Virus record (IMG/VR): IMGVR_UViG_2671180458_000005
Length of the DNA stretch: 40,062 nt
Source of the DNA: a virus
Lineage: Duplodnaviria; Heunggongvirae; Uroviricota; Caudoviricetes
Direction: 5' to 3' (one strand)
Shown here: in pieces, positions 9,461 to 19,177 of the stretch
Layout: every line of letters starts with the position of its first letter
Numbering within the stretch: position 1 is the stretch's first letter
The notes under the pieces: model-generated
The model's input: only the letters and a program-made list of their open reading frames with translations
Databases searched by the model: none
What the model was told of the DNA's origin: nothing
Position numbers and translations under genes: made by a program

Positions 9461-10204
9461 ATGACACAGACTGAATCAGCGATTCTGGCGCATGCCCGGC
9501 GGTGTGCGCCGGCGGAGTCGTGCGGCTTCGTGATAAGCACCCCGGAGGGCGAACGGTACCAGCCCTGCGTGAATATCTCCGCAGAGCCGGAGGCGTATTT
9601 TCGTATTACACCGGAAGACTGGCTGCAGGCACAGATGCAGGGGAAGATTGTGGCGCTGGTCCACAGTCATCCCGGTGGTCTGCCCTGGCTGAGCGAGGCG
9701 GACCGGCGGCTGCAGATAAAGAGTGCCCTGCCCTGGTGGCTGGTCTGCCGGGGTGAAATTCACCGGTTCCGCTGTGTGCCGCACCTGACCGGACGGCGCT
9801 TTGAACACGGTGTGACGGACTGTTACACCCTGTTCCGGGATGCATACCATCTGGCGGGGATAACGCTGCCGGATTTTGTGCGTGAGGATGACTGGTGGCG
9901 CAACGGTCAGAACCTGTACCTGGACAACCTGGCAGACAACGGCTTTTACCGGGTGTCTCCGTCCTGTGCACAGGCAGGCGATATCCTGCTGTGCTGCTTT
10001 GGTTCATCGGTGCCGAATCATGCCGCCATTTACTGTGGCAACGGTGAACTGCTTCACCATATACCTGAACAACTGAGTAAACGGGAGAGGTATTCTGAAA
10101 AATGGCAACGACGAACGCATTCTGTCTGGCGTCACCGCCACTGGTCCGCATCTGCCTTCACGGGGATTTACAACGATTTGGTCGCCGCATCAGCCTGTAT
10201 GTGA
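9461..10204 (+). CDS. K: Tail tip assembly protein K (JAB/MPN plus NlpC/P60-like regions)
   Basis: Start chosen at ATG 9461 (MTQTESAILAH...); HSHPGG motif (JAMM-like) and later Cys/His motifs; 103-nt overlap with I as in lambda. Start uncertain (no obvious SD). Confidence 0.75.
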   Translation: MTQTESAILAHARRCAPAESCGFVISTPEGERYQPCVNISAEPEAYFRITPEDWLQAQMQGKIVALVHSHPGGLPWLSEADRRLQIKSALPWWLVCRGEIHRFRCVPHLTGRRFEHGVTDCYTLFRDAYHLAGITLPDFVREDDWWRNGQNLYLDNLADNGFYRVSPSCAQAGDILLCCFGSSVPNHAAIYCGNGELLHHIPEQLSKRERYSEKWQRRTHSVWRHRHWSASAFTGIYNDLVAASACM

Positions 10205-10740
10205 ACACGGCAGCGGAGGCCATCCGTGCCCTGTCGCTGCAGGTGCCGGGATTCCGGCAGAAACTGTATGAGGGATGGTATCAGTTACGCATTGCGGGCA
10301 GGGATGTATCTGAACAGGAGCTTCATTCCAGAGTATGTGAGCCGTTGAATGACGGGGATGTTATCCATCTGGTGCCCCGGACGGAGGGGGCAAAAAACGG
10401 CGGTGTTCTTCAGGTGGTGGCCGGTGCTGTTCTGGCTGTTGTGGGATATGTGTTCAGCTGGACCGGTATTGGTGCTGTCATCGGTAATCTTGGGGTGGCC
10501 ATGATGGTGGGGGGTATCACGCAGATGCTCACCCCCAGGGCGAAAACACCGTCTGCCACGACAACAGATAATGGTAAACGGAACACGTATTTCTCCTCAC
10601 TGGACAACATGATTGCCCAGGGTAACCCGATGCCGGTGCCTTACGGTGAAATGCTGGTTGGTTCACGACGGATATCCCAGGACATCAGCACCCGTGATGA
10701 GGGCGGAGATGGGAAAGTGGTGGTTATCGGGCGGGGATAA
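10102..10740 (+). CDS. I: Tail assembly protein I
   Basis: 212 aa; LASPPLVRICLHGDLQRFGRRI...YFSSLDNMIAQGN...GEMLVGSR matches lambda I as recalled; overlaps K 3-prime end. Confidence 0.85.
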   Translation: MATTNAFCLASPPLVRICLHGDLQRFGRRISLYVNTAAEAIRALSLQVPGFRQKLYEGWYQLRIAGRDVSEQELHSRVCEPLNDGDVIHLVPRTEGAKNGGVLQVVAGAVLAVVGYVFSWTGIGAVIGNLGVAMMVGGITQMLTPRAKTPSATTTDNGKRNTYFSSLDNMIAQGNPMPVPYGEMLVGSRRISQDISTRDEGGDGKVVVIGRG

Positions 10741-10778
10741 AAATAAAAAAATCCCGCAGAGTTAGCGGAGCTGCGGGA
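10741..10778 (-). terminator. Hairpin with A-tract on plus strand (reads as a minus-strand intrinsic terminator)
   Basis: CCCGCAG-11 nt loop-CTGCGGG at 10754..10778 preceded on plus strand by AAATAAAAAAA; no minus-strand gene identified that would use it. Confidence 0.35.
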
Positions 10779-10873
10779 AGAGATACGAAGATTAACTGTA
10801 AGGAGTTATTATTATGTCACAGCAAAAAAAACGGTAACGCAGAGAAATTATAAGCGCCACTGGGATTTTGTGA

Positions 10874-10898
10874 AAATGTGAAGAATTTCAGAAATTTT
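10874..10898. repeat. Copy 1 of conserved 25-nt box AAATGTGAAGAATTTCAGAAATTTT
   Basis: Exact 25-mer repeated at 11053..11077; contains palindrome AATTTC-A-GAAATT. Confidence 0.8.
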
Positions 10899-11052
10899 CT
10901 GTTGCGGAGCTGAACTAAAAAACGCTCCCGCAATACACCTGGATATTAACGGGAGGAACGAATAGTCACCTTAAGGAGTTGCGATTAATTGCTTTTATTG
11001 ACCGCAGGTAATCTACCCATCCGGCAAGGTTTCCTCCACGGGAATTTGCCGG

Positions 11053-11077
11053 AAATGTGAAGAATTTCAGAAATTTT
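11053..11077. repeat. Copy 2 of conserved 25-nt box AAATGTGAAGAATTTCAGAAATTTT
   Basis: Identical to 10874..10898; followed 14 nt later by a strong terminator hairpin. Confidence 0.8.
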
Positions 11078-11090
11078 ATTCCGTCATGAC

Positions 11091-11122
11091 ACAGGCACCC
11101 TCCGGGGTGCCTGTTGTTTTTG
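11091..11122 (+). terminator. Rho-independent terminator immediately upstream of J
   Basis: ACAGGCACCC-TCCG-GGGTGCCTGT followed by TGTTTTT. Confidence 0.7.
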
Positions 11123-11164
11123 GGCATAAACAGATTAAGACATCAGACAGGAGTGGGGGACAGA

Positions 11165-14100
11165 GTGGGTAAAGGGGGCGGCAAGGGGCACACACCGCGT
11201 GAGGCGAAGGACAATCTCAAGTCAACGCAGATGATGAGCGTGATTGATGCCATTGGTGAGGGACCGGTGGAAGGCCCGGTGAAGGGACTGCAGAGTATTC
11301 TGGTGAACAAAACCCCGCTGACGGACACGGACGGTAATCCCGTGATACACGGTGTGACCGCCGTCTGGCGTGCCGGGGAGCAGGAGCAGACACCGCCGGA
11401 AGGCTTTGAGTCCTCCGGGGCGGAAACCGCACTGGGCGTGGAGGTGACGAAGGCAAAGCCGGTGACGCGCACCATCACGTCAGCGAACATTGACCGTCTG
11501 CGGGTCACCTTCGGGGTGCAGTCACTGGTGGAGACCACCTCAAAGGGTGACCGTAATCCCTCTTCTGTCCGCCTGCTGATTCAGCTTGAGCGTAACGGGC
11601 ACTGGGTGACGGAGAAGGATGTCACCATTAACGGCAAGACCACCTCGCAGTACCTGACGTCGGTGATTCTGAATAATCTCCCTGAGCGCCCCTTTAACAT
11701 CCGGATGGTCAGGGAGACGGCGGACAGCACCACGGACCAGCTGCAGAACAGAACGCTGTGGTCGTCATACACCGAAATCATCGATGTGAAACAGTGCTAC
11801 CCGAACACGGCCATTGTGGGGCTGCAGGTGGATGCGGAGCAGTTCGGTGGCCAGCAGATGGTGGTGAACTACCATATCCGCGGCCGCATCATTCAGGTGC
11901 CGTCAAACTATGACCCGGAAAAACGCACCTACAGCGGTATCTGGGACGGGAGTCTGAAACCGGCATACAGCAATAACCCGGCCTGGTGCCTGTGGGACAT
12001 GCTGACCCACCCGCGCTACGGCATGGGAAAACGCCTGGGGGCCGCGGATGTGGACAAGTGGGCACTGTATGCCATCGGGCAGTACTGTGACCAGACGGTC
12101 CCGGATGGTTTCGGGGGAACAGAGCCGCGGATGACTTTCAATGCGTACCTGTCACAGCAGCGTAAGGTGTGGGATGTCCTGGGGGATTTCTGCTCGGCGA
12201 TGCGCTGTATGCCGGTATGGAACGGCCAGACGCTGACGTTCGTTCAGGACCGTCCGTCGGATGTGGTGTGGCCGTACACGAACAGCGATGTGGTGGTGGA
12301 TGATAACGGCGTGGGGTTCCGCTACAGCTTCAGTGCCCTGAAGGACCGGCACACGGCGGTGGAGGTGAATTACACCGACCCGCAGAACGGCTGGCAGACT
12401 TCCACTGAACTGGTGGAAGACCCGGACGCCATCCTGCGCTACGGGCGCAATCTGCTGAAGATGGATGCGTTTGGCTGTACCAGCCGCGGTCAGGCCCACC
12501 GTGCCGGACTGTGGGTGATAAAGACAGAACTGCTGGAAACGCAGACGGTGGATTTCACGCTCGGGTCACAGGGGCTGCGGCACACGCCCGGTGACATCAT
12601 TGAAATCTGTGATAACGACTATGCCGGGACCCTGACCGGTGGACGTATCCTGTCCATCGATGCCGCCAGCCGTACCCTGACGCTGGACCGTGAGGTGACA
12701 CTGCCGGAAGCAGGGACATCGACGGTGAACCTGATTAACGGCAGCGGTAAGCCGGTGCGCGTGGACATCACTGCACACCCCGCCCCGGACCGGATACAGG
12801 TCAGCGCCCTGCCGGATGGCGTGGAGACATACGGTGTGTGGGGACTCTCCCTGCCGTTACTGCGTCGTCGCCTGTTCCGCTGTGTTTCCATCCGGGAAAA
12901 CACGGACGGCACCTTTGCCATCACGGCAGTGCAGCACGTACCGGAAAAAGAAGCCATCGTGGATAACGGGGCCAGCTTTGAGCCGCTCTCCGGCTCACTG
13001 AACAGCGTTATCCCGCCGGCTGTGCAGCACCTCACGGTGGAGGTGAGTGCCTCAGACGGCCAGTATCTGGCGCTGGCGAAATGGGACACGCCGCGGGTGG
13101 TGAAGGGCGTGCGCTTCAGTCTGCGCCTGACCAGTGGCAGTGGTGAAAACAGCCGCCTGGTGACCACCGCCATCACTGCCGACACGGAGCACCGTTTCAG
13201 TGGCCTGCCGCCCGGGGAATACACCCTGACGGTCAGGGCGATAAACAGCTACGGCCGGCAGGGCGAACCTGCCACCACCACATTCCGGATTAATGCGCCT
13301 GCAGCACCGGCCAGCATTGAGCTGACGCCGGGGTATTATCAGATAACAGCAGTACCGGTGCTGGCGGTGTATGACCCGACGGTACAGTATGAATTCTGGT
13401 TCTCAGAAAAACGCATCACGGACATGGCACAGGTGGAAACCTCTGCCCGTTATCTGGGGACAGGCAGCCAGTGGAGTGTCTCCGGCCCGCACATTAAGCC
13501 GGGGAAGGATTTCTGGTTTTATGTGCGCAGCGTCAACCTGGTGGGGAAATCTGCGTTTGTGGAAGCCAGTGGCCGGGCCAGCAATGATGCGGAAGGGTAT
13601 CTGGGGCTGTTTCGGGAAAAGATAGGAAAACTGCATCTGGCACAGGGGATGTGGGAGCTGATTGATAACAGCCAGCTTGACGATGAGATGGCGGAGATGA
13701 AGACCACCATCACCGAAACCCGCAATGAAATCACGCAGACGGTCAGTAAAACCCTGGAAGACCAGAGTGCCACCATACAGCAGATACAGCGGGTGCAGAC
13801 AGACACAAATAACGACCTGGCTGCGCTGTACATGCTGAAGGTGCAGAAAACGAAAAACGGCATTCCGTATGTTGCCGGTATAGGTGCGGGGATTGAGGAT
13901 GCTGATGGTCAGCCCCTGAGCAATATACTGCTGCAGGCGGACCGTATCGCGATGATTAACCCGGAGAACGGCAACACCACGCCGCTGTTTGTGGCGCAGG
14001 GGAATCAGCTGTTCATGAACGATGTGTTCCTGAAGCGACTGTTTGCAGTGAGCATCACCTCGTCCGGCAATCCCCCGACGTTCTCCCTGACGCCGGAGGG

Positions 14101-14632
14101 CAGGCTGACGGCCCGCAATGCTGACATCAGCGGACATATCAGTGCGAACTCGGGCACGCTCAATAATGTCGTGATAGCGGAGAACTGTACGATAAATGGC
14201 ACGCTGAAAGCGGAGAACATTATTGGTGATCTTGTGAAATGTGCAGGGGTGGCTTTTCCGGTGGATGGTAGTTACCTTGCGAACGGTACACGAACGCTGA
14301 CGGTGTATGACGATCACAGCTTTGACCGGCAGATTATAATCCCGCCGATAATCTATGTCGGGTCAAAACAGGAATCCCGTACCAGTAATGACATCTGGAC
14401 AGAGTGCTTCCTGCATGTTGATCAGAACGGACGCCGGATTTATTCCGGCAGGTCAGTGACAGAGCCGGGAATTTTCAGCGGGATCATCGATATGCCAGCC
14501 GGTCATGGTCATATCACCCTGAGTTTTACCGTAAGTTCACGACGTCAGAACGGGAGTTTTGGCAGTTCACGTATCAGTAACCTTCAGGCGATAGTGGTGA
14601 AGAAAAACAGCGCGGGGATCAGCATCCGCTGA
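11165..14632 (+). CDS. J: Tail tip host-specificity protein J
   Basis: GTG start at 11165 giving (M)[21 protein letters not shown], matching lambda J N-terminus as recalled; GGAG 11 nt upstream; about 1155 aa; C-terminal ~150 aa look divergent from lambda J. Confidence 0.85.
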
Positions 14633-17905: not shown

Positions 17906-19177
17906 ATGAACAAAAAATTCTCTAAGACTATTCTTTCTTCTGTTGTTGCCGGACTGTTGCTGGTAAGTAGTGGGGGTGTTGCAAAAGAGATTGATATTGG
18001 TGGTAAATATAAAGTTATTCTGACAGAGGAAACAGGTTCGGCAAGGATTGTGGATATAAATACTAAAAAAGATTTATTTGATGGAATTATTAATGCGAAA
18101 ACAGGCACTGTTACTACTGTAAACAAAAAAGAGATTCAATCTGCTATAGATAGTTTTTATGCCGCTAACCCAAAAATAAATAAAGATGATCCAAACATTA
18201 AACAGATGGTGGCTCAGGCTGCTGGTAATTCGGGGCGTTATACAGTCTCTTTACCCAGTGGGCTCCCTTCGTTAACGACTGAAAATATTTTCAATCTAAA
18301 AGTGACTGATATTGAAAAAATAAAATCTAATATTGATGGTGTTAATTCAGTTATCACCAGTAAAACTGCAAAAGATTACAATATTGCTATCAGTAACGGC
18401 ATGAGTTCAGAAGCTGCGCTAACAGCGGCTAAAGATGGTAATGGAGCGCTGTTACAGGAATTCAACCGTCTCGGCACAAATGTAAATGACCTGAAAAATG
18501 CCACTACATTTGCTCTTGATGAAAATGGTGAAATTACCTATGAAAAAGGAGTGGAAAGCATTCCTGTTAAGGATGTGGTTGCAGAGGTAAAAGCCGATAC
18601 AACAATTCGTAAGAACAAAGATGGCAGCTATACCCTGGATCAGACCGCGCCTGATACTGTTCGTGTGAACGCTGCAATTGTTGATCTGGATAAAAATCTG
18701 AAAGACAGAACCACTGTTGGCGTGAATTCAGACGGCAGCCTGACCACTGCTGAAGGAGCCACAAAAACTGTTGCGGTAAGTGAAGGCCTTGTTTCCCTGT
18801 CGGGAAGAACTGGCCGTATTGATGCTGCGGTTGGTGGCATTGACACCCGTGTCACCAAAAACACTCAGACTATCCAGAATCACTCCCGCCAGCTGCAGGA
18901 GCATAACGCGCGGCTGAACAGTCAGCAGCGTCAGATTCGTGAAAACCACGAAGAAATGAAACGTGCTGCTGCACAGAGTGCGGCACTGGCAGGTTTGTTC
19001 CAGCCGTACAGTGTGGGTAAATTCAACGCCACGGCAGCACTGGGTGGTTACAGTGACAAACAGGCTATGGCCGTTGGTGTGGGTTACCGCTTTAACGAGC
19101 AGACAGCAGCCAAAGCAGGTATTGCAGCCAGCGACGGTGATGTATCCTACAACGTTGGTGTGAACTTCGAGTTTTAA
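17906..19177 (+). CDS. Trimeric autotransporter adhesin with YadA-like C-terminal anchor (Eib-like family)
   Basis: 423 aa; N-terminal signal peptide; coiled-coil stretch ([42 protein letters not shown]); C-terminal beta-barrel anchor ending NVGVNFEF; low-GC, AT-rich upstream region. Confidence 0.65.

What the first reader, a model, noticed from the sequence alone, without database searches (positions are those of the whole stretch)
10741..11164. Expanded I-J spacer with a duplicated exact 25-nt palindromic box, SD-led mini-ORFs and terminators
Lambda has about 60 nt between I and J; here there are 424 nt arranged as two diverged units. Each unit has TAAGGAGTT, a short ORF, then the identical 25-mer AAATGTGAAGAATTTCAGAAATTTT (10874 and 11053), then a hairpin; the second hairpin is a strong terminator directly abutting the J start. 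Unit 1 has a 7-codon ORF (ATG 10814) running through an A8 tract, and both upstream reading frames end at the TGA inside the box. Perfect conservation of the box amid diverged flanks suggests a protein- or RNA-level function (cis-regulatory site, sRNA, or frameshift/attenuation element controlling J). I cannot assign it to a known element.
Basis: seen in the sequence. Interest (0 to 1): 0.55.

Follow-up and report, generated by a model that had tools for sequence, protein, structure and literature searches.

The report
Tandem PasB-type prophage sRNA genes
The long gap between tail genes I and J holds two back-to-front small-RNA genes of the known PasB/EcOnc22 family, and the repeated 25-base "box" is most likely their shared upstream control site, so this is a known element in a tandem layout not described before.

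Summary
The sequence facts are right: a 424-nt I-J spacer, two diverged units and an exact 25-mer at 10874 and 11053. Each unit is a minus-strand gene for a small RNA (sRNA) of about 80-97 nt: box, promoter, RNA body, then an intrinsic terminator. Unit 1 (10840..10745) is 78% identical to PasB, an Hfq-dependent sRNA validated in enteropathogenic E. coli (EPEC) E2348/69 at this same I-J position. The enterohaemorrhagic E. coli (EHEC) Sakai Hfq-bound RNAs EcOnc22/23/24 (about 85 nt) map to the same spot. Unit 2 (about 11003..10917) is a distant paralogue, and whether it is active is uncertain.

Among 86 related I-J spacers, 5 hold no unit, 59 hold one, 10 two, 2 three and 10 four. I found no report of these tandem arrays. 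Across 19 unit types the box keeps TGTGA and TCAGA while the 6 bp between them vary. That is the pattern of a CRP-type dimer site. The site lies 60.5-61.5 bp upstream of the start that matches the mapped PasB 5' end. CRP binding is untested.

The "SD" TAAGGAG is the complement of a conserved CUCCUUA in the sRNA. The mini-ORFs are not conserved. The plus-strand terminator before J also occurs in lambda-like 60-nt spacers.

The parts
10102..10740 (+). Tail assembly gene I; stop TAA at 10738-10740
   Evidence: ORF list; Pfam Lambda_tail_I E 1.3e-17; homologues annotated as tail assembly protein I
10745..10840 (-). Unit 1 sRNA gene, PasB/EcOnc22 family. 96 nt if it starts at G10840 (promoter P1); 79 nt if it starts at G10823 (promoter P2). 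Ends in U7 at 10751..10745.
   Evidence: 78% identical to EPEC PasB. Scores 96.3 bits, E 3.8e-14, with model R2, which was built without window sequences. Folds as an open body plus terminator hairpin, z about -3. PasB coordinates and probe are in Table S6 of PMC8550237 and map to the same place in E2348/69.
10753..10777 (-). Unit 1 intrinsic terminator hairpin (CCCGCAG, 11-nt loop, CTGCGGG), followed by A and T7 (10752..10745), directly after the I stop codon
   Evidence: Terminator scan. On 52 distinct family members the helix is 95.6% paired, and 3 of 7 pairs show compensatory changes.
10799..10805 (-). CUCCUUA in the sRNA body. It is part of the conserved AACUCCUUA..GUUAAUCUUCGU core and is a candidate base-pairing region.
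   Evidence: Conserved across 19 unit types. Zhu et al. place the PasB seed in the single-stranded stretch just upstream of the terminator.
10831..10859 (-). Candidate promoter P2 of unit 1: -35 TGGCGC (10859..10854), 17-bp spacer, -10 TACCGT (10836..10831), start near G10823
   Evidence: T, A and the last T of the -10, and T and G of the -35, are invariant or nearly so across all unit types. The start matches the annotated PasB 5' end in EPEC. It is a poor consensus match, and the promoter scan did not call it.
10847..10874 (-). Candidate promoter P1 of unit 1: TTCACA (10874..10869), 16-bp spacer, TATAAT (10852..10847), start at G10840
   Evidence: 11 of 12 consensus match. An xATAAT is kept in most unit types but not all; it is lost in window unit 2.
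10874..10898 (.). Box 1: CRP-like site. 22-mer 10874-10895, half-sites TGTGA 10877-10881 and TCAGA 10888-10892, centre 10884.5, plus a T/A tract
   Evidence: Half-sites are invariant across 19 unit types while the N6 between them varies. The centre is -61.5 from the P2 start and -44.5 from the P1 start.
10899..10916 (.). 18-nt linker between the units. It corresponds to the two ends of the 87-nt linker of the 3-unit (L006) and 2-unit (L037) arrays, with about 55 nt missing from the middle.
   Evidence: Sequence comparison
10917..11003 (-). Unit 2 candidate sRNA gene (type B-like distant paralogue), about 87 nt if it starts at G11003/G11002; activity uncertain
   Evidence: Same order of parts as unit 1: box, GT.G, TAnnnT, AACUCCUUAAGGUGACUAUUCGU, hairpin, U6. 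With the type-A-only model it scores 13.4 bits, E 0.032, in a local search and is missed in the whole-window search. 57-61% identical to PasB and unit 1.
10925..10955 (-). Unit 2 terminator hairpin (CUCCCG..CGGGAG, extended by AAUA/UAUU), then GC and U6 (10922..10917)
   Evidence: Fold. Homologous hairpins in type-B units of L005, L006, L007 and L037.
11010..11038 (-). Unit 2 candidate promoter (P2 type): TGGAGG (11038..11033), 17-bp spacer, TAGATT (11015..11010). The P1-equivalent -10 reads AACCTT.
11053..11077 (.). Box 2: identical CRP-like site (TGTGA 11056-11060, TCAGA 11067-11071, centre 11063.5), -60.5/-61.5 from the unit 2 candidate start
11091..11122 (+). Plus-strand intrinsic terminator (ACAGGCACCC-TCCG-GGGTGCCTGT, then TGTTTTT) upstream of J. 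It is an ancestral feature of the I-J junction and not part of the repeated unit.
   Evidence: Terminator scan and inverted repeat. Equivalent hairpin plus T-run in 60-nt lambda-like, 198-nt and 342-nt spacers. Stem kept with different loops in E2348/69 and L007.
11165..14632 (+). Tail tip / host specificity gene J (GTG start, SD AGGAG at 11149-11153)
   Evidence: ORF list; J homologues annotated; tblastn anchoring

Best explanation
The I-J spacer is a moron-type insertion: extra DNA with its own promoter and terminator inside the late operon. It carries two tandem sRNA genes of the PasB/EcOnc22 family, transcribed on the minus strand, antisense to the tail operon.

Each unit reads, on the minus strand:
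1. the 25-nt box;
2. a promoter;
3. an sRNA of about 80-97 nt with an open, U-rich body holding AACUCCUUA and GUUAAUCUUCGU-like motifs;
4. a GC-rich hairpin and a U-tail.

Unit 1 ends right after the I stop codon. Unit 2 ends 18 nt before box 1.

The exact 25-mer is the upstream control site of each sRNA promoter. It is most likely a binding site for cAMP-CRP (TGTGA-N6-TCAGA) in the class I position, 60.5-61.5 bp upstream of the start. That would switch the sRNAs on when glucose is absent.

By homology with PasB, the products are Hfq-dependent trans-acting sRNAs made in the lysogen that pair with host and prophage mRNAs.

The two-unit layout arose by recombination between different spacer alleles at the conserved box or linker. 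It is one state of a series of 1 to 4 units.

**Shown:** sequence homology, position and strand relative to PasB and EcOnc22-24, terminator covariation, the array series, and the conservation pattern of the box.

**Inferred:** expression from this window, which start site is used, CRP binding, Hfq dependence and targets here, and activity of unit 2.

**My sub-confidences:** unit 1 is a PasB-family sRNA gene, 0.9. The box is a promoter-upstream regulatory site, 0.75. The regulator is CRP, 0.5. Unit 2 is expressed, 0.45. The overall confidence given (0.8) is for the core claim: minus-strand PasB-family sRNA gene units, with the box as their upstream promoter element.
For: **1. Link to PasB.** The PasB northern probe AATCCCGCAGTGATCGCGGAGCT and the coordinates NC_011601 1466343..1466261(-) (Table S6, PMC8550237) fall in the hairpin and body directly after the I stop in E2348/69. 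This is antisense to I and J.

**2. Homology of the spacer.** The window spacer aligns with single-unit spacers of 147 phage records and 748 of 5,426 E. coli genomes.
- Unit 1 is 78% identical to PasB.
- Unit 1 scores 96.3 bits with a covariance model that excludes window sequences.

**3. Link to EHEC.** EcOnc22/23/24 (about 85 nt, destabilised without hfq) lie in the I-J spacers of Sakai prophages Sp15, Sp14 and Sp11, on the antisense strand.
- I measured a coordinate shift of +137 to +146 between genome versions, using AgvB1 as anchor.
- With that shift the peaks fall on the PasB-like RNAs found by the model.

**4. Gene signals in the window.**
- Minus-strand promoter with an 11 of 12 consensus match, and a minus-strand terminator.
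- sRNA-like folds.
- Terminator helix 95.6% paired, with 3 compensatory pairs.

**5. Array series.** Among 86 related spacers, 5 hold no unit, 59 hold one, 10 two, 2 three and 10 four. All 100 model hits lie on the minus strand inside I-J spacers.

**6. The box.**
- Both half-sites are invariant across 19 unit types (<85% identical to each other), while the 6 bp between them vary.
- The geometry is -60.5/-61.5 from the start that matches the EPEC 5' end.
- The TAnnnT and T.G positions of that promoter are the only invariant positions in an otherwise rewritten 40-nt segment of unit 2.

**7. Expression direction.** PasB gives 258 RIL-seq chimeric fragments in glucose-rich DMEM and 1,820 in LB. 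Spot 42, which CRP represses, gives 7,925 and 387. CyaR, which CRP activates, gives 4,299 and 7,362. The text also says PasB is higher in the non-activating condition.
Against: - There are no expression data for this window or for any two-unit array.
- The start site is unresolved.
  - The strongest consensus promoter (P1, TTCACA-16-TATAAT) puts the box centre at -44.5. By established knowledge this is not an activating position for CRP.
  - The promoter that fits CRP geometry (P2) is a poor consensus match (about 5 of 12), and the scan did not call it.
  - The EPEC 5' end comes from RNA-seq coverage, not from mapping of primary 5' ends, so it could be a processing site.
- One half-site departs from the CRP consensus (TCAGA, not TCACA). 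No binding was tested. The LB versus DMEM difference also involves temperature and growth phase.
- Unit 2 lacks the P1 -10, has an interrupted U-tail (GC then U6) and is barely detected by the type-A model (13.4 bits). It may be a decaying copy.
- Zhu et al. report PasB as typically single-copy and do not mention arrays.
Confidence: 0.8

Rival explanations
1. One reading: a plus-strand cis element, part of the late mRNA. It would contain SD-led mini-ORFs, a box and hairpins that attenuate, frameshift or otherwise tune expression of J.
For: The spacer is transcribed on the plus strand during lytic growth. A plus-strand terminator sits 43 nt before J. TAAGGAG with a downstream start codon exists in both window units.
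Against: - Only 11 of 70 distinct units have an SD plus ATG. VT1-Sakai and EPEC units lack the ATG.
- Peptide length and frame change with the A-run length.
- The box dyad cannot form an RNA hairpin because the arms are 1 nt apart.
- The plus-strand terminator also exists in 60-nt lambda-like spacers that have no unit.
- Validated transcripts at this locus are on the other strand.
Confidence: 0.04
2. Type I toxin-antitoxin repeats (as in Ibs/Sib or Zor/Orz): a small plus-strand toxin ORF in each unit, repressed by the overlapping antisense sRNA.
For: The units are tandemly repeated, and an antisense sRNA covers an SD-like sequence and short ORFs.
Against: There is no conserved ORF. The peptides are 6-33 aa, mostly hydrophilic (mean hydropathy about -2.6 to +0.8), with variable frames and stops. 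PasB behaves as a trans-acting sRNA with 37 partners in RIL-seq.
Confidence: 0.02
3. The units are sRNA genes, but the box is not a CRP site. It would be a site for another regulator (host or phage), or simply an UP-like/-35-proximal element of the near-consensus P1 promoter. The sRNA would then be a primary transcript of about 96 nt, processed to about 80 nt.
For: - P1 matches the consensus at 11 of 12 positions.
- xATAAT is conserved in most unit types.
- The box abuts the P1 -35.
- There is an A/T tract beside the box.
- The Sakai RNA is about 85 nt by northern. That lies between the lengths I calculate for it from the P1 and P2 starts (about 91 and 75 nt).
Against: - The P1 -35 is not conserved (TCCGGC in the VT1-Sakai type), yet EcOnc22 is expressed.
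- The P1 -10 is absent in window unit 2 and weak in other types, while the box stays invariant.
- Conserved half-sites around a variable 6-bp centre are typical of a CRP/FNR-type dimer site, not of an UP element.
Confidence: 0.3
4. Unit 2 is a non-functional relic, so the duplicated box in this window is a neutral scar of unequal recombination between spacer alleles.
For: - Unit 2 lacks the P1 -10 (AACCTT).
- Its linker carries a deletion of about 55 nt relative to the L006/L037 arrays.
- Its U-tail is interrupted.
- It scores 13.4 bits with the type-A model.
- Its fold z-score is only -0.26.
Against: - Box 2 is 25 of 25 identical.
- The TAnnnT and T.G promoter positions, the AACUCCUUAAGGUGACUAUUCGU core and a good terminator stem are all kept.
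- The arrangement is held at 98-100% identity in about 27-33 complete genomes from different hosts.
Confidence: 0.45
5. Main role in cis. Because the sRNAs are perfectly complementary to the late mRNA just upstream of J, they would act chiefly as antisense RNAs. They would promote RNase III cleavage or transcriptional interference, limiting J synthesis by the same prophage or by related induced or superinfecting phages.
For: The antisense orientation and the position immediately upstream of J are invariant in all 100 units. Strains carry up to 9 copies of such spacers. Unit bodies have diversified into at least 19 types.
Against: There are no data. PasB has many trans partners in RIL-seq. Antisense orientation is also common for morons that must be expressed independently of late transcription. 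Conserved motifs in the body suggest trans seeds.
Confidence: 0.12

Closest known systems
PasB (pathogenicity-associated sRNA B) of EPEC E2348/69 prophage PP6 (Pearl Mizrahi et al. 2021, PMC8550237; Zhu, Shabalina & Storz 2026 preprint, 10.64898/2026.05.13.724894)
   Same: Same genomic slot (between tail genes I and J) and same antisense strand. The terminator hairpin and conserved core are shared. Unit 1 is 78% identical to PasB. PasB is an 83-nt, Hfq-dependent RNA with 37 RIL-seq partners.
   Different: The window unit 1 is a diverged variant. Its longest exact match to PasB is 15 nt, so the word-size-28 BLAST used in the preprint's bacterial-genome survey would miss it. The window has a second, distant paralogue in tandem, whereas PasB is described as single-copy. 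Neither paper discusses a promoter or a CRP-like site.
EcOnc22 / EcOnc23 / EcOnc24 of EHEC O157:H7 Sakai prophages Sp15, Sp14 and Sp11 (Tree et al. 2014, PMC4104026, Table S2)
   Same: These are Hfq-crosslinked RNAs of about 85 nt, destabilised without hfq. They lie in I-J spacers on the antisense strand. The covariance model places the homologous RNA there at 91 bits.
   Different: They have no assigned function or target, and I found no paper linking them to PasB. The Sakai units are single and of the VT1-Sakai type (AATAAT at P1, TACTTT at P2).
Morons of lambdoid phages (Juhala et al. 2000), including the convergent sRNA pairs AgvB/AsxR downstream of PR'
   Same: An autonomous promoter-gene-terminator cassette inserted between late genes and expressed from the prophage. 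The same I-J slot holds a sodC moron in some relatives.
   Different: The cargo is one to four sRNA genes, not a protein gene. The site is the I-J junction, not the PR' region. There is no sequence similarity to AgvB/AsxR, and Rfam found nothing here.
Tandem sRNA paralogues (OmrA/OmrB, PrrF1/PrrF2, Qrr1-5, SIB repeats)
   Same: Head-to-tail sRNA paralogues with conserved promoter and terminator modules and diverged bodies.
   Different: Here the copy number varies from 1 to 4 between otherwise similar prophages. The copies are of different types that seem to have been assembled by recombination.
CRP-activated sRNA promoters (CyaR, McaS) and the lac P1 class I arrangement (CRP site centred at -61.5); from established knowledge
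   Same: TGTGA-N6-TCAnA with a perfect promoter-proximal half-site, centred 60.5-61.5 bp upstream of a weak TAnnnT promoter. The sRNA is more abundant in LB than in glucose medium.
   Different: Binding and crp dependence are untested. One half-site deviates from consensus. A stronger overlapping promoter (P1) would put the site at -44.5.

Membership tests
PasB / EcOnc22 sRNA family | Located in the I-J intergenic region of a lambdoid prophage, on the strand antisense to I and J, with its 3' end next to the I stop codon | tested here: met
   Window unit 1 at 10840..10745(-) ends 5 nt after the I stop. PasB in E2348/69 and EcOnc22-24 in Sakai have the same layout.
PasB / EcOnc22 sRNA family | Sequence and structure homology to PasB (unit 1) | tested here: met
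   78% identity. 96.3 bits, E 3.8e-14, with a model built without window sequences. BLAST alignment to single-unit spacers.
PasB / EcOnc22 sRNA family | Sequence and structure homology to PasB (unit 2) | tested here: inconclusive
   57% identity. Missed by the type-A-only model in the whole-window search. 13.4 bits, E 0.032, in a 701-nt search with filters off. Type-B intermediates score 22.8-29.7 bits. The order of parts is shared.
PasB / EcOnc22 sRNA family | Rho-independent terminator hairpin followed by a U-tail (the Hfq-binding 3' module) | tested here: met
   Unit 1: 7-bp GC stem plus U7. Unit 2: 6-bp (up to 11-bp) stem, then GC and U6. Helix covariation.
PasB / EcOnc22 sRNA family | Expressed as a discrete RNA of about 80-100 nt whose stability depends on Hfq | not testable with these tools
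   Shown for the EPEC and EHEC homologues only.
cAMP-CRP binding site | Two half-sites TGTGA / TCACA separated by 6 bp (consensus AAATGTGATCTAGATCACATTT; established knowledge) | tested here: met
   AAATGTGA-AGAATT-TCAGAAAT matches 9 of 10 core positions. The half-sites are invariant across 19 unit types and the N6 varies. This is a consensus match recalled from the literature, not a scored matrix.
cAMP-CRP binding site | Centred at an activating position (-41.5, -61.5, -71.5 and so on) relative to a transcription start | tested here: inconclusive
   -60.5/-61.5 from the P2 start, which matches the EPEC 5' end. -44.5 from the P1 start. The start has not been mapped by 5' RACE or dRNA-seq.
cAMP-CRP binding site | CRP binds the site, and expression depends on crp and cAMP | not testable with these tools
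   Only indirect evidence: PasB gives 7-fold more RIL-seq fragments in LB than in DMEM, the opposite of Spot 42.
Moron (autonomous cassette in a late operon) | Own promoter and own terminator, inserted between conserved late genes that are adjacent in relatives | tested here: met
   60-nt spacers in lambda-like relatives against 240-929 nt here. Predicted promoter and terminator. sodC occupies the same slot in L083 and L012.
Type I toxin-antitoxin | Conserved small, usually hydrophobic, toxin ORF overlapped by the antisense RNA | tested here: not met
   No conserved ORF; frames shift with homopolymer length; peptides are hydrophilic.
Any Rfam 15 family | Match at or near a family's gathering score | tested here: not met
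   Best hits over 10000-12000 are at most 21 bits, with E of at least 0.22 and gathering scores of 39-86. AgvB and STnc100 are found in a control Sakai locus.

The most novel reading that the evidence does not exclude
The I-J junction of E. coli lambdoid prophages is an expandable cassette array of one to four diverged, CRP-controlled Hfq sRNA genes. Each cassette acts in trans on host mRNAs. Each is also perfectly antisense to the late tail mRNA just upstream of J. Resident prophages could therefore use the array to throttle J synthesis of themselves or of related induced or superinfecting phages. That would be RNA-level competition between phages, and it would drive diversification of the units.
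Probability: 0.12. Interest if true: 0.7.

Novelty: new variant of a known kind. Interest (0 to 1): 0.42.

Why it matters
**Why it matters**
- It turns an unexplained repeat into an annotatable feature. Neither Rfam 15 nor the phage and genome records I inspected mark an RNA gene in this spacer.
- It links two independently reported sRNAs, EHEC EcOnc22-24 and EPEC PasB, into one family at a fixed phage position.
- It shows that prophages differ in how many copies, and which types, of this sRNA they carry (0 to 4 per I-J junction, several junctions per genome). This changes how the sRNA repertoire of pathogenic E. coli should be counted.
- If the box is a real CRP site, a widespread prophage sRNA family would be under catabolite control. 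That gives a direct, cheap test.

**Limit.** The function of PasB itself is still unknown, so the biological pay-off is uncertain.

Tried and rejected
- **Rfam 15** over 10000-12000 at E up to 10: only chance-level hits.
- **AgvB/AsxR anti-sRNAs.** They sit downstream of PR', not at I-J, and are unrelated in sequence.
- **svsR** (PMC12803456) is at the 3' end of cI and is unrelated.
- **Mini-ORFs and type I toxins:** not conserved. The 53-aa minus-strand ORF 10966-11127 has no Pfam family.
- **sRNA pairing with the J start region.** Duplex energies are -16.1 and -15.5 kcal/mol. 76% and 69% of shuffled J start regions pair at least as well, and the values lie within the range for other genes.
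- **RNAalifold** on the 100-hit alignment predicted no pairs, because type-A and type-B stems are out of register. The named-helix count was used instead.
- **Broad scan of viral contigs** for ATGTGAA-N5-TCANA-N2-TTT returned mostly chance matches in unrelated viruses. Only 14 of the 74 loci I then searched with the model also had the sRNA.
- **Genome-contig scan** with protein I gave only 5 loci, 3 of them probably contaminant contigs. It says little about spread beyond Escherichia.
- **Array linkers as remnants of I-gene 3' ends:** the linkers match only other spacers.
- **Weak model hit** at 18030-18116(-), 15.7 bits, E 0.25: it lies inside an ORF and is probably chance.
- **P1 versus P2 from the Sakai CRAC peak edges:** the coordinate shift between genome versions is known only to about 10-20 nt, so this does not decide the start.
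Full report
**1. Observation check**

Gene I (Pfam Lambda_tail_I) ends with TAA at 10738-10740. J starts with GTG at 11165. The spacer is therefore 424 nt.

- The 25-mer AAATGTGAAGAATTTCAGAAATTTT is present exactly at 10874-10898 and 11053-11077. It lies inside a 42-nt repeat that is 86% identical.
- A second repeat (35 nt, 71% identical) carries TAAGGAGTT.
- The 7-codon ORF at 10814 and the plus-strand terminator at 11091-11122 are real.
- Lambda-like relatives have 60-nt I-J spacers.
- TGTGA-N6-TCA[C/G]A occurs nowhere else in the 40-kb window, against 0.27 expected.

There are two corrections.

- The box is only an imperfect dyad, and its arms are too close to form an RNA hairpin.

**2. What the unit is**

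The spacer matches 147 phage records and 748 of 5,426 complete E. coli genomes. Nearly all of them have a single spacer of about 240 nt. It corresponds to window 10741 to about 10856 joined to about 11036-11164. No gene is annotated there apart from occasional "hypothetical proteins".

The link to the literature is PasB.

- Table S6 of Pearl Mizrahi et al. (PMC8550237) gives PasB as an 83-nt RNA at NC_011601 1466343..1466261 on the minus strand, between E2348C_1436 and E2348C_1437. The northern probe is AATCCCGCAGTGATCGCGGAGCT.
- In the E2348/69 sequence these are genes I and J. The probe lies in the hairpin directly after the I stop, and the RNA is antisense to both genes.
- PasB was validated by northern blot and its stability depends on Hfq. 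[quoted passage not shown]

Window unit 1 is 78% identical to PasB. A covariance model built only from other loci finds it at 10745-10840(-) with 96.3 bits.

The same RNA was seen earlier in EHEC.

- Tree et al. (PMC4104026, Table S2) list EcOnc22, EcOnc23 and EcOnc24 as homologous Hfq-bound RNAs. EcOnc22 is about 85 nt by northern and is destabilised without hfq.
- Their coordinates fall in the I-J spacers of Sakai prophages Sp15, Sp14 and Sp11, on the strand antisense to I and J.
- The paper used an older genome version. Using AgvB1 as an anchor, I measured a shift of +137 to +146. With that shift the peaks fall on the body of the PasB-like RNAs that the model finds at 91 bits.
- I found no paper that links EcOnc22-24 with PasB.

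**3. Anatomy on the minus strand**

Unit 1 has these parts, in order:

- box 1 (10898..10874);
- promoter region;
- RNA;
- hairpin CCCGCAG/CTGCGGG (10777..10753);
- U7 (10751..10745), ending 5 nt after the I stop.

The RNA folds as an open body plus a terminator hairpin, with a z-score of about -3.

Across 52 distinct family members the terminator helix is 95.6% paired. Three of its seven pairs show compensatory changes, and slid controls give 30-58% paired.

This sits in the most conserved part of the body, AACUCCUUA...GUUAAUCUUCGU. Zhu et al. place the likely PasB seed just upstream of the terminator.

Unit 2 repeats the same order:

- box 2 (11077..11053);
- promoter-like positions;
- AACUCCUUAAGGUGACUAUUCGU;
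- hairpin CUCCCG...CGGGAG (10955..10925);
- GC and then U6 (10922..10917).

**4. The spacer is one state of an array series**

I collected 86 I-J spacers from IMG/VR, phage and genome records. The lengths fall into classes:

| Spacer length (nt) | Units | Number of spacers |
|---|---|---|
| 60 (lambda-like) or 198 | 0 | 5 |
| about 240, about 340, or 851 | 1 | 59 |
| 421-489 | 2 | 10 |
| 712-715 | 3 | 2 |
| 907-929 | 4 | 10 |

This set is redundant and biased, so the counts are not prevalences.

- All 100 covariance-model hits are on the minus strand inside I-J spacers.
- The units fall into at least 19 types that are less than 85% identical to each other.
- In complete genomes the window-type two-unit spacer occurs in 33 of 5,426. 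An array-internal linker occurs in 86 of 5,426.
- The window's 18-nt linker corresponds to the two ends of the 87-nt linker of the L006 and L037 arrays, with about 55 nt missing from the middle. Unit 2 belongs with the "type B" units seen singly in L007 and inside longer arrays.
- Unit 2 is a distant paralogue: 57-61% identical to PasB and unit 1. The type-A-only model misses it in the whole-window search. That model finds it only in a local search, at 13.4 bits and E 0.032. Other type-B units score 22.8-29.7 bits.

The preprint by Zhu et al. describes PasB as typically single-copy per genome. Its shortest distance between copies is 28 kb, and it does not mention tandem arrays, promoters or CRP. 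Their bacterial-genome BLAST used a word size of 28. The longest exact match between unit 1 and PasB is 15 nt, so that search would miss it.

**5. The box**

Read on the minus strand, the unit begins AAAA(T/A)T-TCTGA-N6-TCACA-TTT. Across the 19 unit types the two pentamers are essentially invariant, while the six bases between them vary.

By established knowledge this is the signature of a CRP-type dimer site. The consensus is AAATGTGATCTAGATCACATTT. The box matches 9 of the 10 core positions, and the promoter-proximal half-site is perfect.

Two promoters are possible.

- **P1** is TTCACA-16-TATAAT, an 11 of 12 consensus match, starting at G10840. It would put the site centre at -44.5, which is not an activating position.
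- **P2** is TGGCGC-17-TACCGT, starting near G10823. It is weak by consensus. However, its T, A and final T of the -10 and its T and G of the -35 are invariant or nearly so in all units.
  - This holds even in window unit 2, where the surrounding 40 nt are otherwise rewritten and the P1 -10 is lost (AACCTT).
  - The P2 start coincides with the annotated PasB 5' end in EPEC.
  - It places the box centre at -60.5/-61.5, the classical class I position.

PasB yields 258 chimeric fragments in glucose-rich DMEM and 1,820 in LB. This is the opposite of CRP-repressed Spot 42 (7,925 and 387) and the same direction as CRP-activated CyaR (4,299 and 7,362).

This is consistent with CRP activation but does not prove it. 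The two conditions also differ in other ways, and the EPEC 5' end comes from read coverage, not from mapping of primary 5' ends. I put CRP at about 0.5, and "a promoter-upstream regulatory site of the sRNA gene" at about 0.75.

**6. What it is not**

- **Mini-ORFs.** Only 11 of 70 distinct units have an SD plus ATG. An extra A in the homopolymer turns MSQQKKR* into a 22-aa peptide. The peptides are hydrophilic. This rules out conserved coding and a type I toxin.
- **Control of J translation.** The sRNAs pair with the J start region no better than with shuffled sequence.
- **The plus-strand terminator before J** is not part of the repeat. Lambda-like 60-nt spacers, and the 198-nt and 342-nt spacers, all have a hairpin plus T-run there. 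In E2348/69 and L007 the stem is kept with different loops. Its role is not resolved here. It may stop transcripts that are not modified by the antiterminator Q from entering J, or act as a barrier to mRNA decay.
- **Rfam** has no family for this RNA.

**7. Mechanism, with shown and inferred steps marked**

Shown:
- homology, position and strand relative to two experimentally detected Hfq-dependent sRNAs;
- gene-like signals and terminator covariation;
- the 0-4 unit series;
- the conservation pattern and geometry of the box.

Inferred:
- In a lysogen each unit is transcribed leftward from a promoter governed by the box, probably cAMP-CRP. Transcription would terminate after I (unit 1) or before box 1 (unit 2).
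- The RNAs bind Hfq through the U-rich body, hairpin and U-tail.
- They regulate mRNAs in trans through the conserved single-stranded motifs.
- The arrays arise by recombination between spacer alleles at the conserved box and linker.

Whether unit 2 is active is open; I put it at about 0.45.

A cis-antisense role against the late I-J mRNA is possible but has no support yet.

**8. Verdict**

The finding is real and non-random, but it resolves to a known sRNA family seen on the opposite strand. Three things appear to be new relative to the papers I could search:

- the tandem arrays of 2 to 4 units with diverged paralogues;
- the equation of EcOnc22-24 with PasB;
- the conserved CRP-like operator.

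This is a new variant of a known kind and of moderate interest.

Noticed in passing
L083 1067-1594(-) and L012 (851-nt I-J spacers): In some relatives the I-J spacer holds one PasB-like unit plus a minus-strand Cu/Zn superoxide dismutase gene (Pfam Sod_Cu, E 3.9e-32). The I-J junction is therefore a general moron insertion site.
   Followed up: partly
L029 and L011 (60-nt spacers); L070 (198 nt); L069 (342 nt); window 11091-11122: Every I-J spacer examined has a plus-strand hairpin plus T-run just upstream of J. This includes the lambda-like 60-nt spacers that have no sRNA unit. A terminator-like element before J seems to be ancestral, and its role in the late operon is unexplained.
   Followed up: partly
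NC_002695.2: 2902836-2902926, 2676767-2676857, 2166817-2166907 (L093, L095, L094): EcOnc22/23/24 coordinates in Tree et al. 2014 are offset from the current Sakai record. The offset is +137 to +146 at AgvB1. Once shifted, the peaks coincide with PasB-like RNAs. I found no paper that connects EcOnc22-24 with PasB.
   Followed up: yes
window 10824-10831 and homologous positions in other units: The U-run near the 5' end of the sRNA (an A-run on the plus strand) varies from about 5 to 9 residues between otherwise near-identical units. This is homopolymer slippage that would shift either the start site or the 5' end of the RNA.
   Followed up: no
L069, L071, L076, L082, L085, L090 (about 340-nt spacers): These single-unit spacers carry an extra segment of about 100 nt between the box and J. 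It has a different plus-strand terminator (CCCCGGTATC..GATACCGGGG) and a different J upstream region. I did not analyse it.
   Followed up: no
L009 (Streptomyces flavalbus contig), L010 (Parendozoicomonas haliclonae, 460 bp), L012 (Clostridiales MAG): Short contigs filed under unrelated organisms carry this E. coli-phage I-J region with PasB-like units. They are most likely contamination or mis-binning.
   Followed up: no
window 18030-18116 (-): A weak covariance-model hit (15.7 bits, E 0.25) with an AAUAAUUCCAU...AAUCUU-like stretch. It lies inside the AT-rich ORF 17906-19177(+) and is probably chance.
   Followed up: partly
L096 428-620(+) and 621-682(-) (Sakai Sp10): Rfam finds STnc100 and AgvB directly abutting each other on opposite strands downstream of PR' in Sp10. 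This is the convergent sRNA pair described by Tree et al. I used it here only as a coordinate anchor.
   Followed up: no
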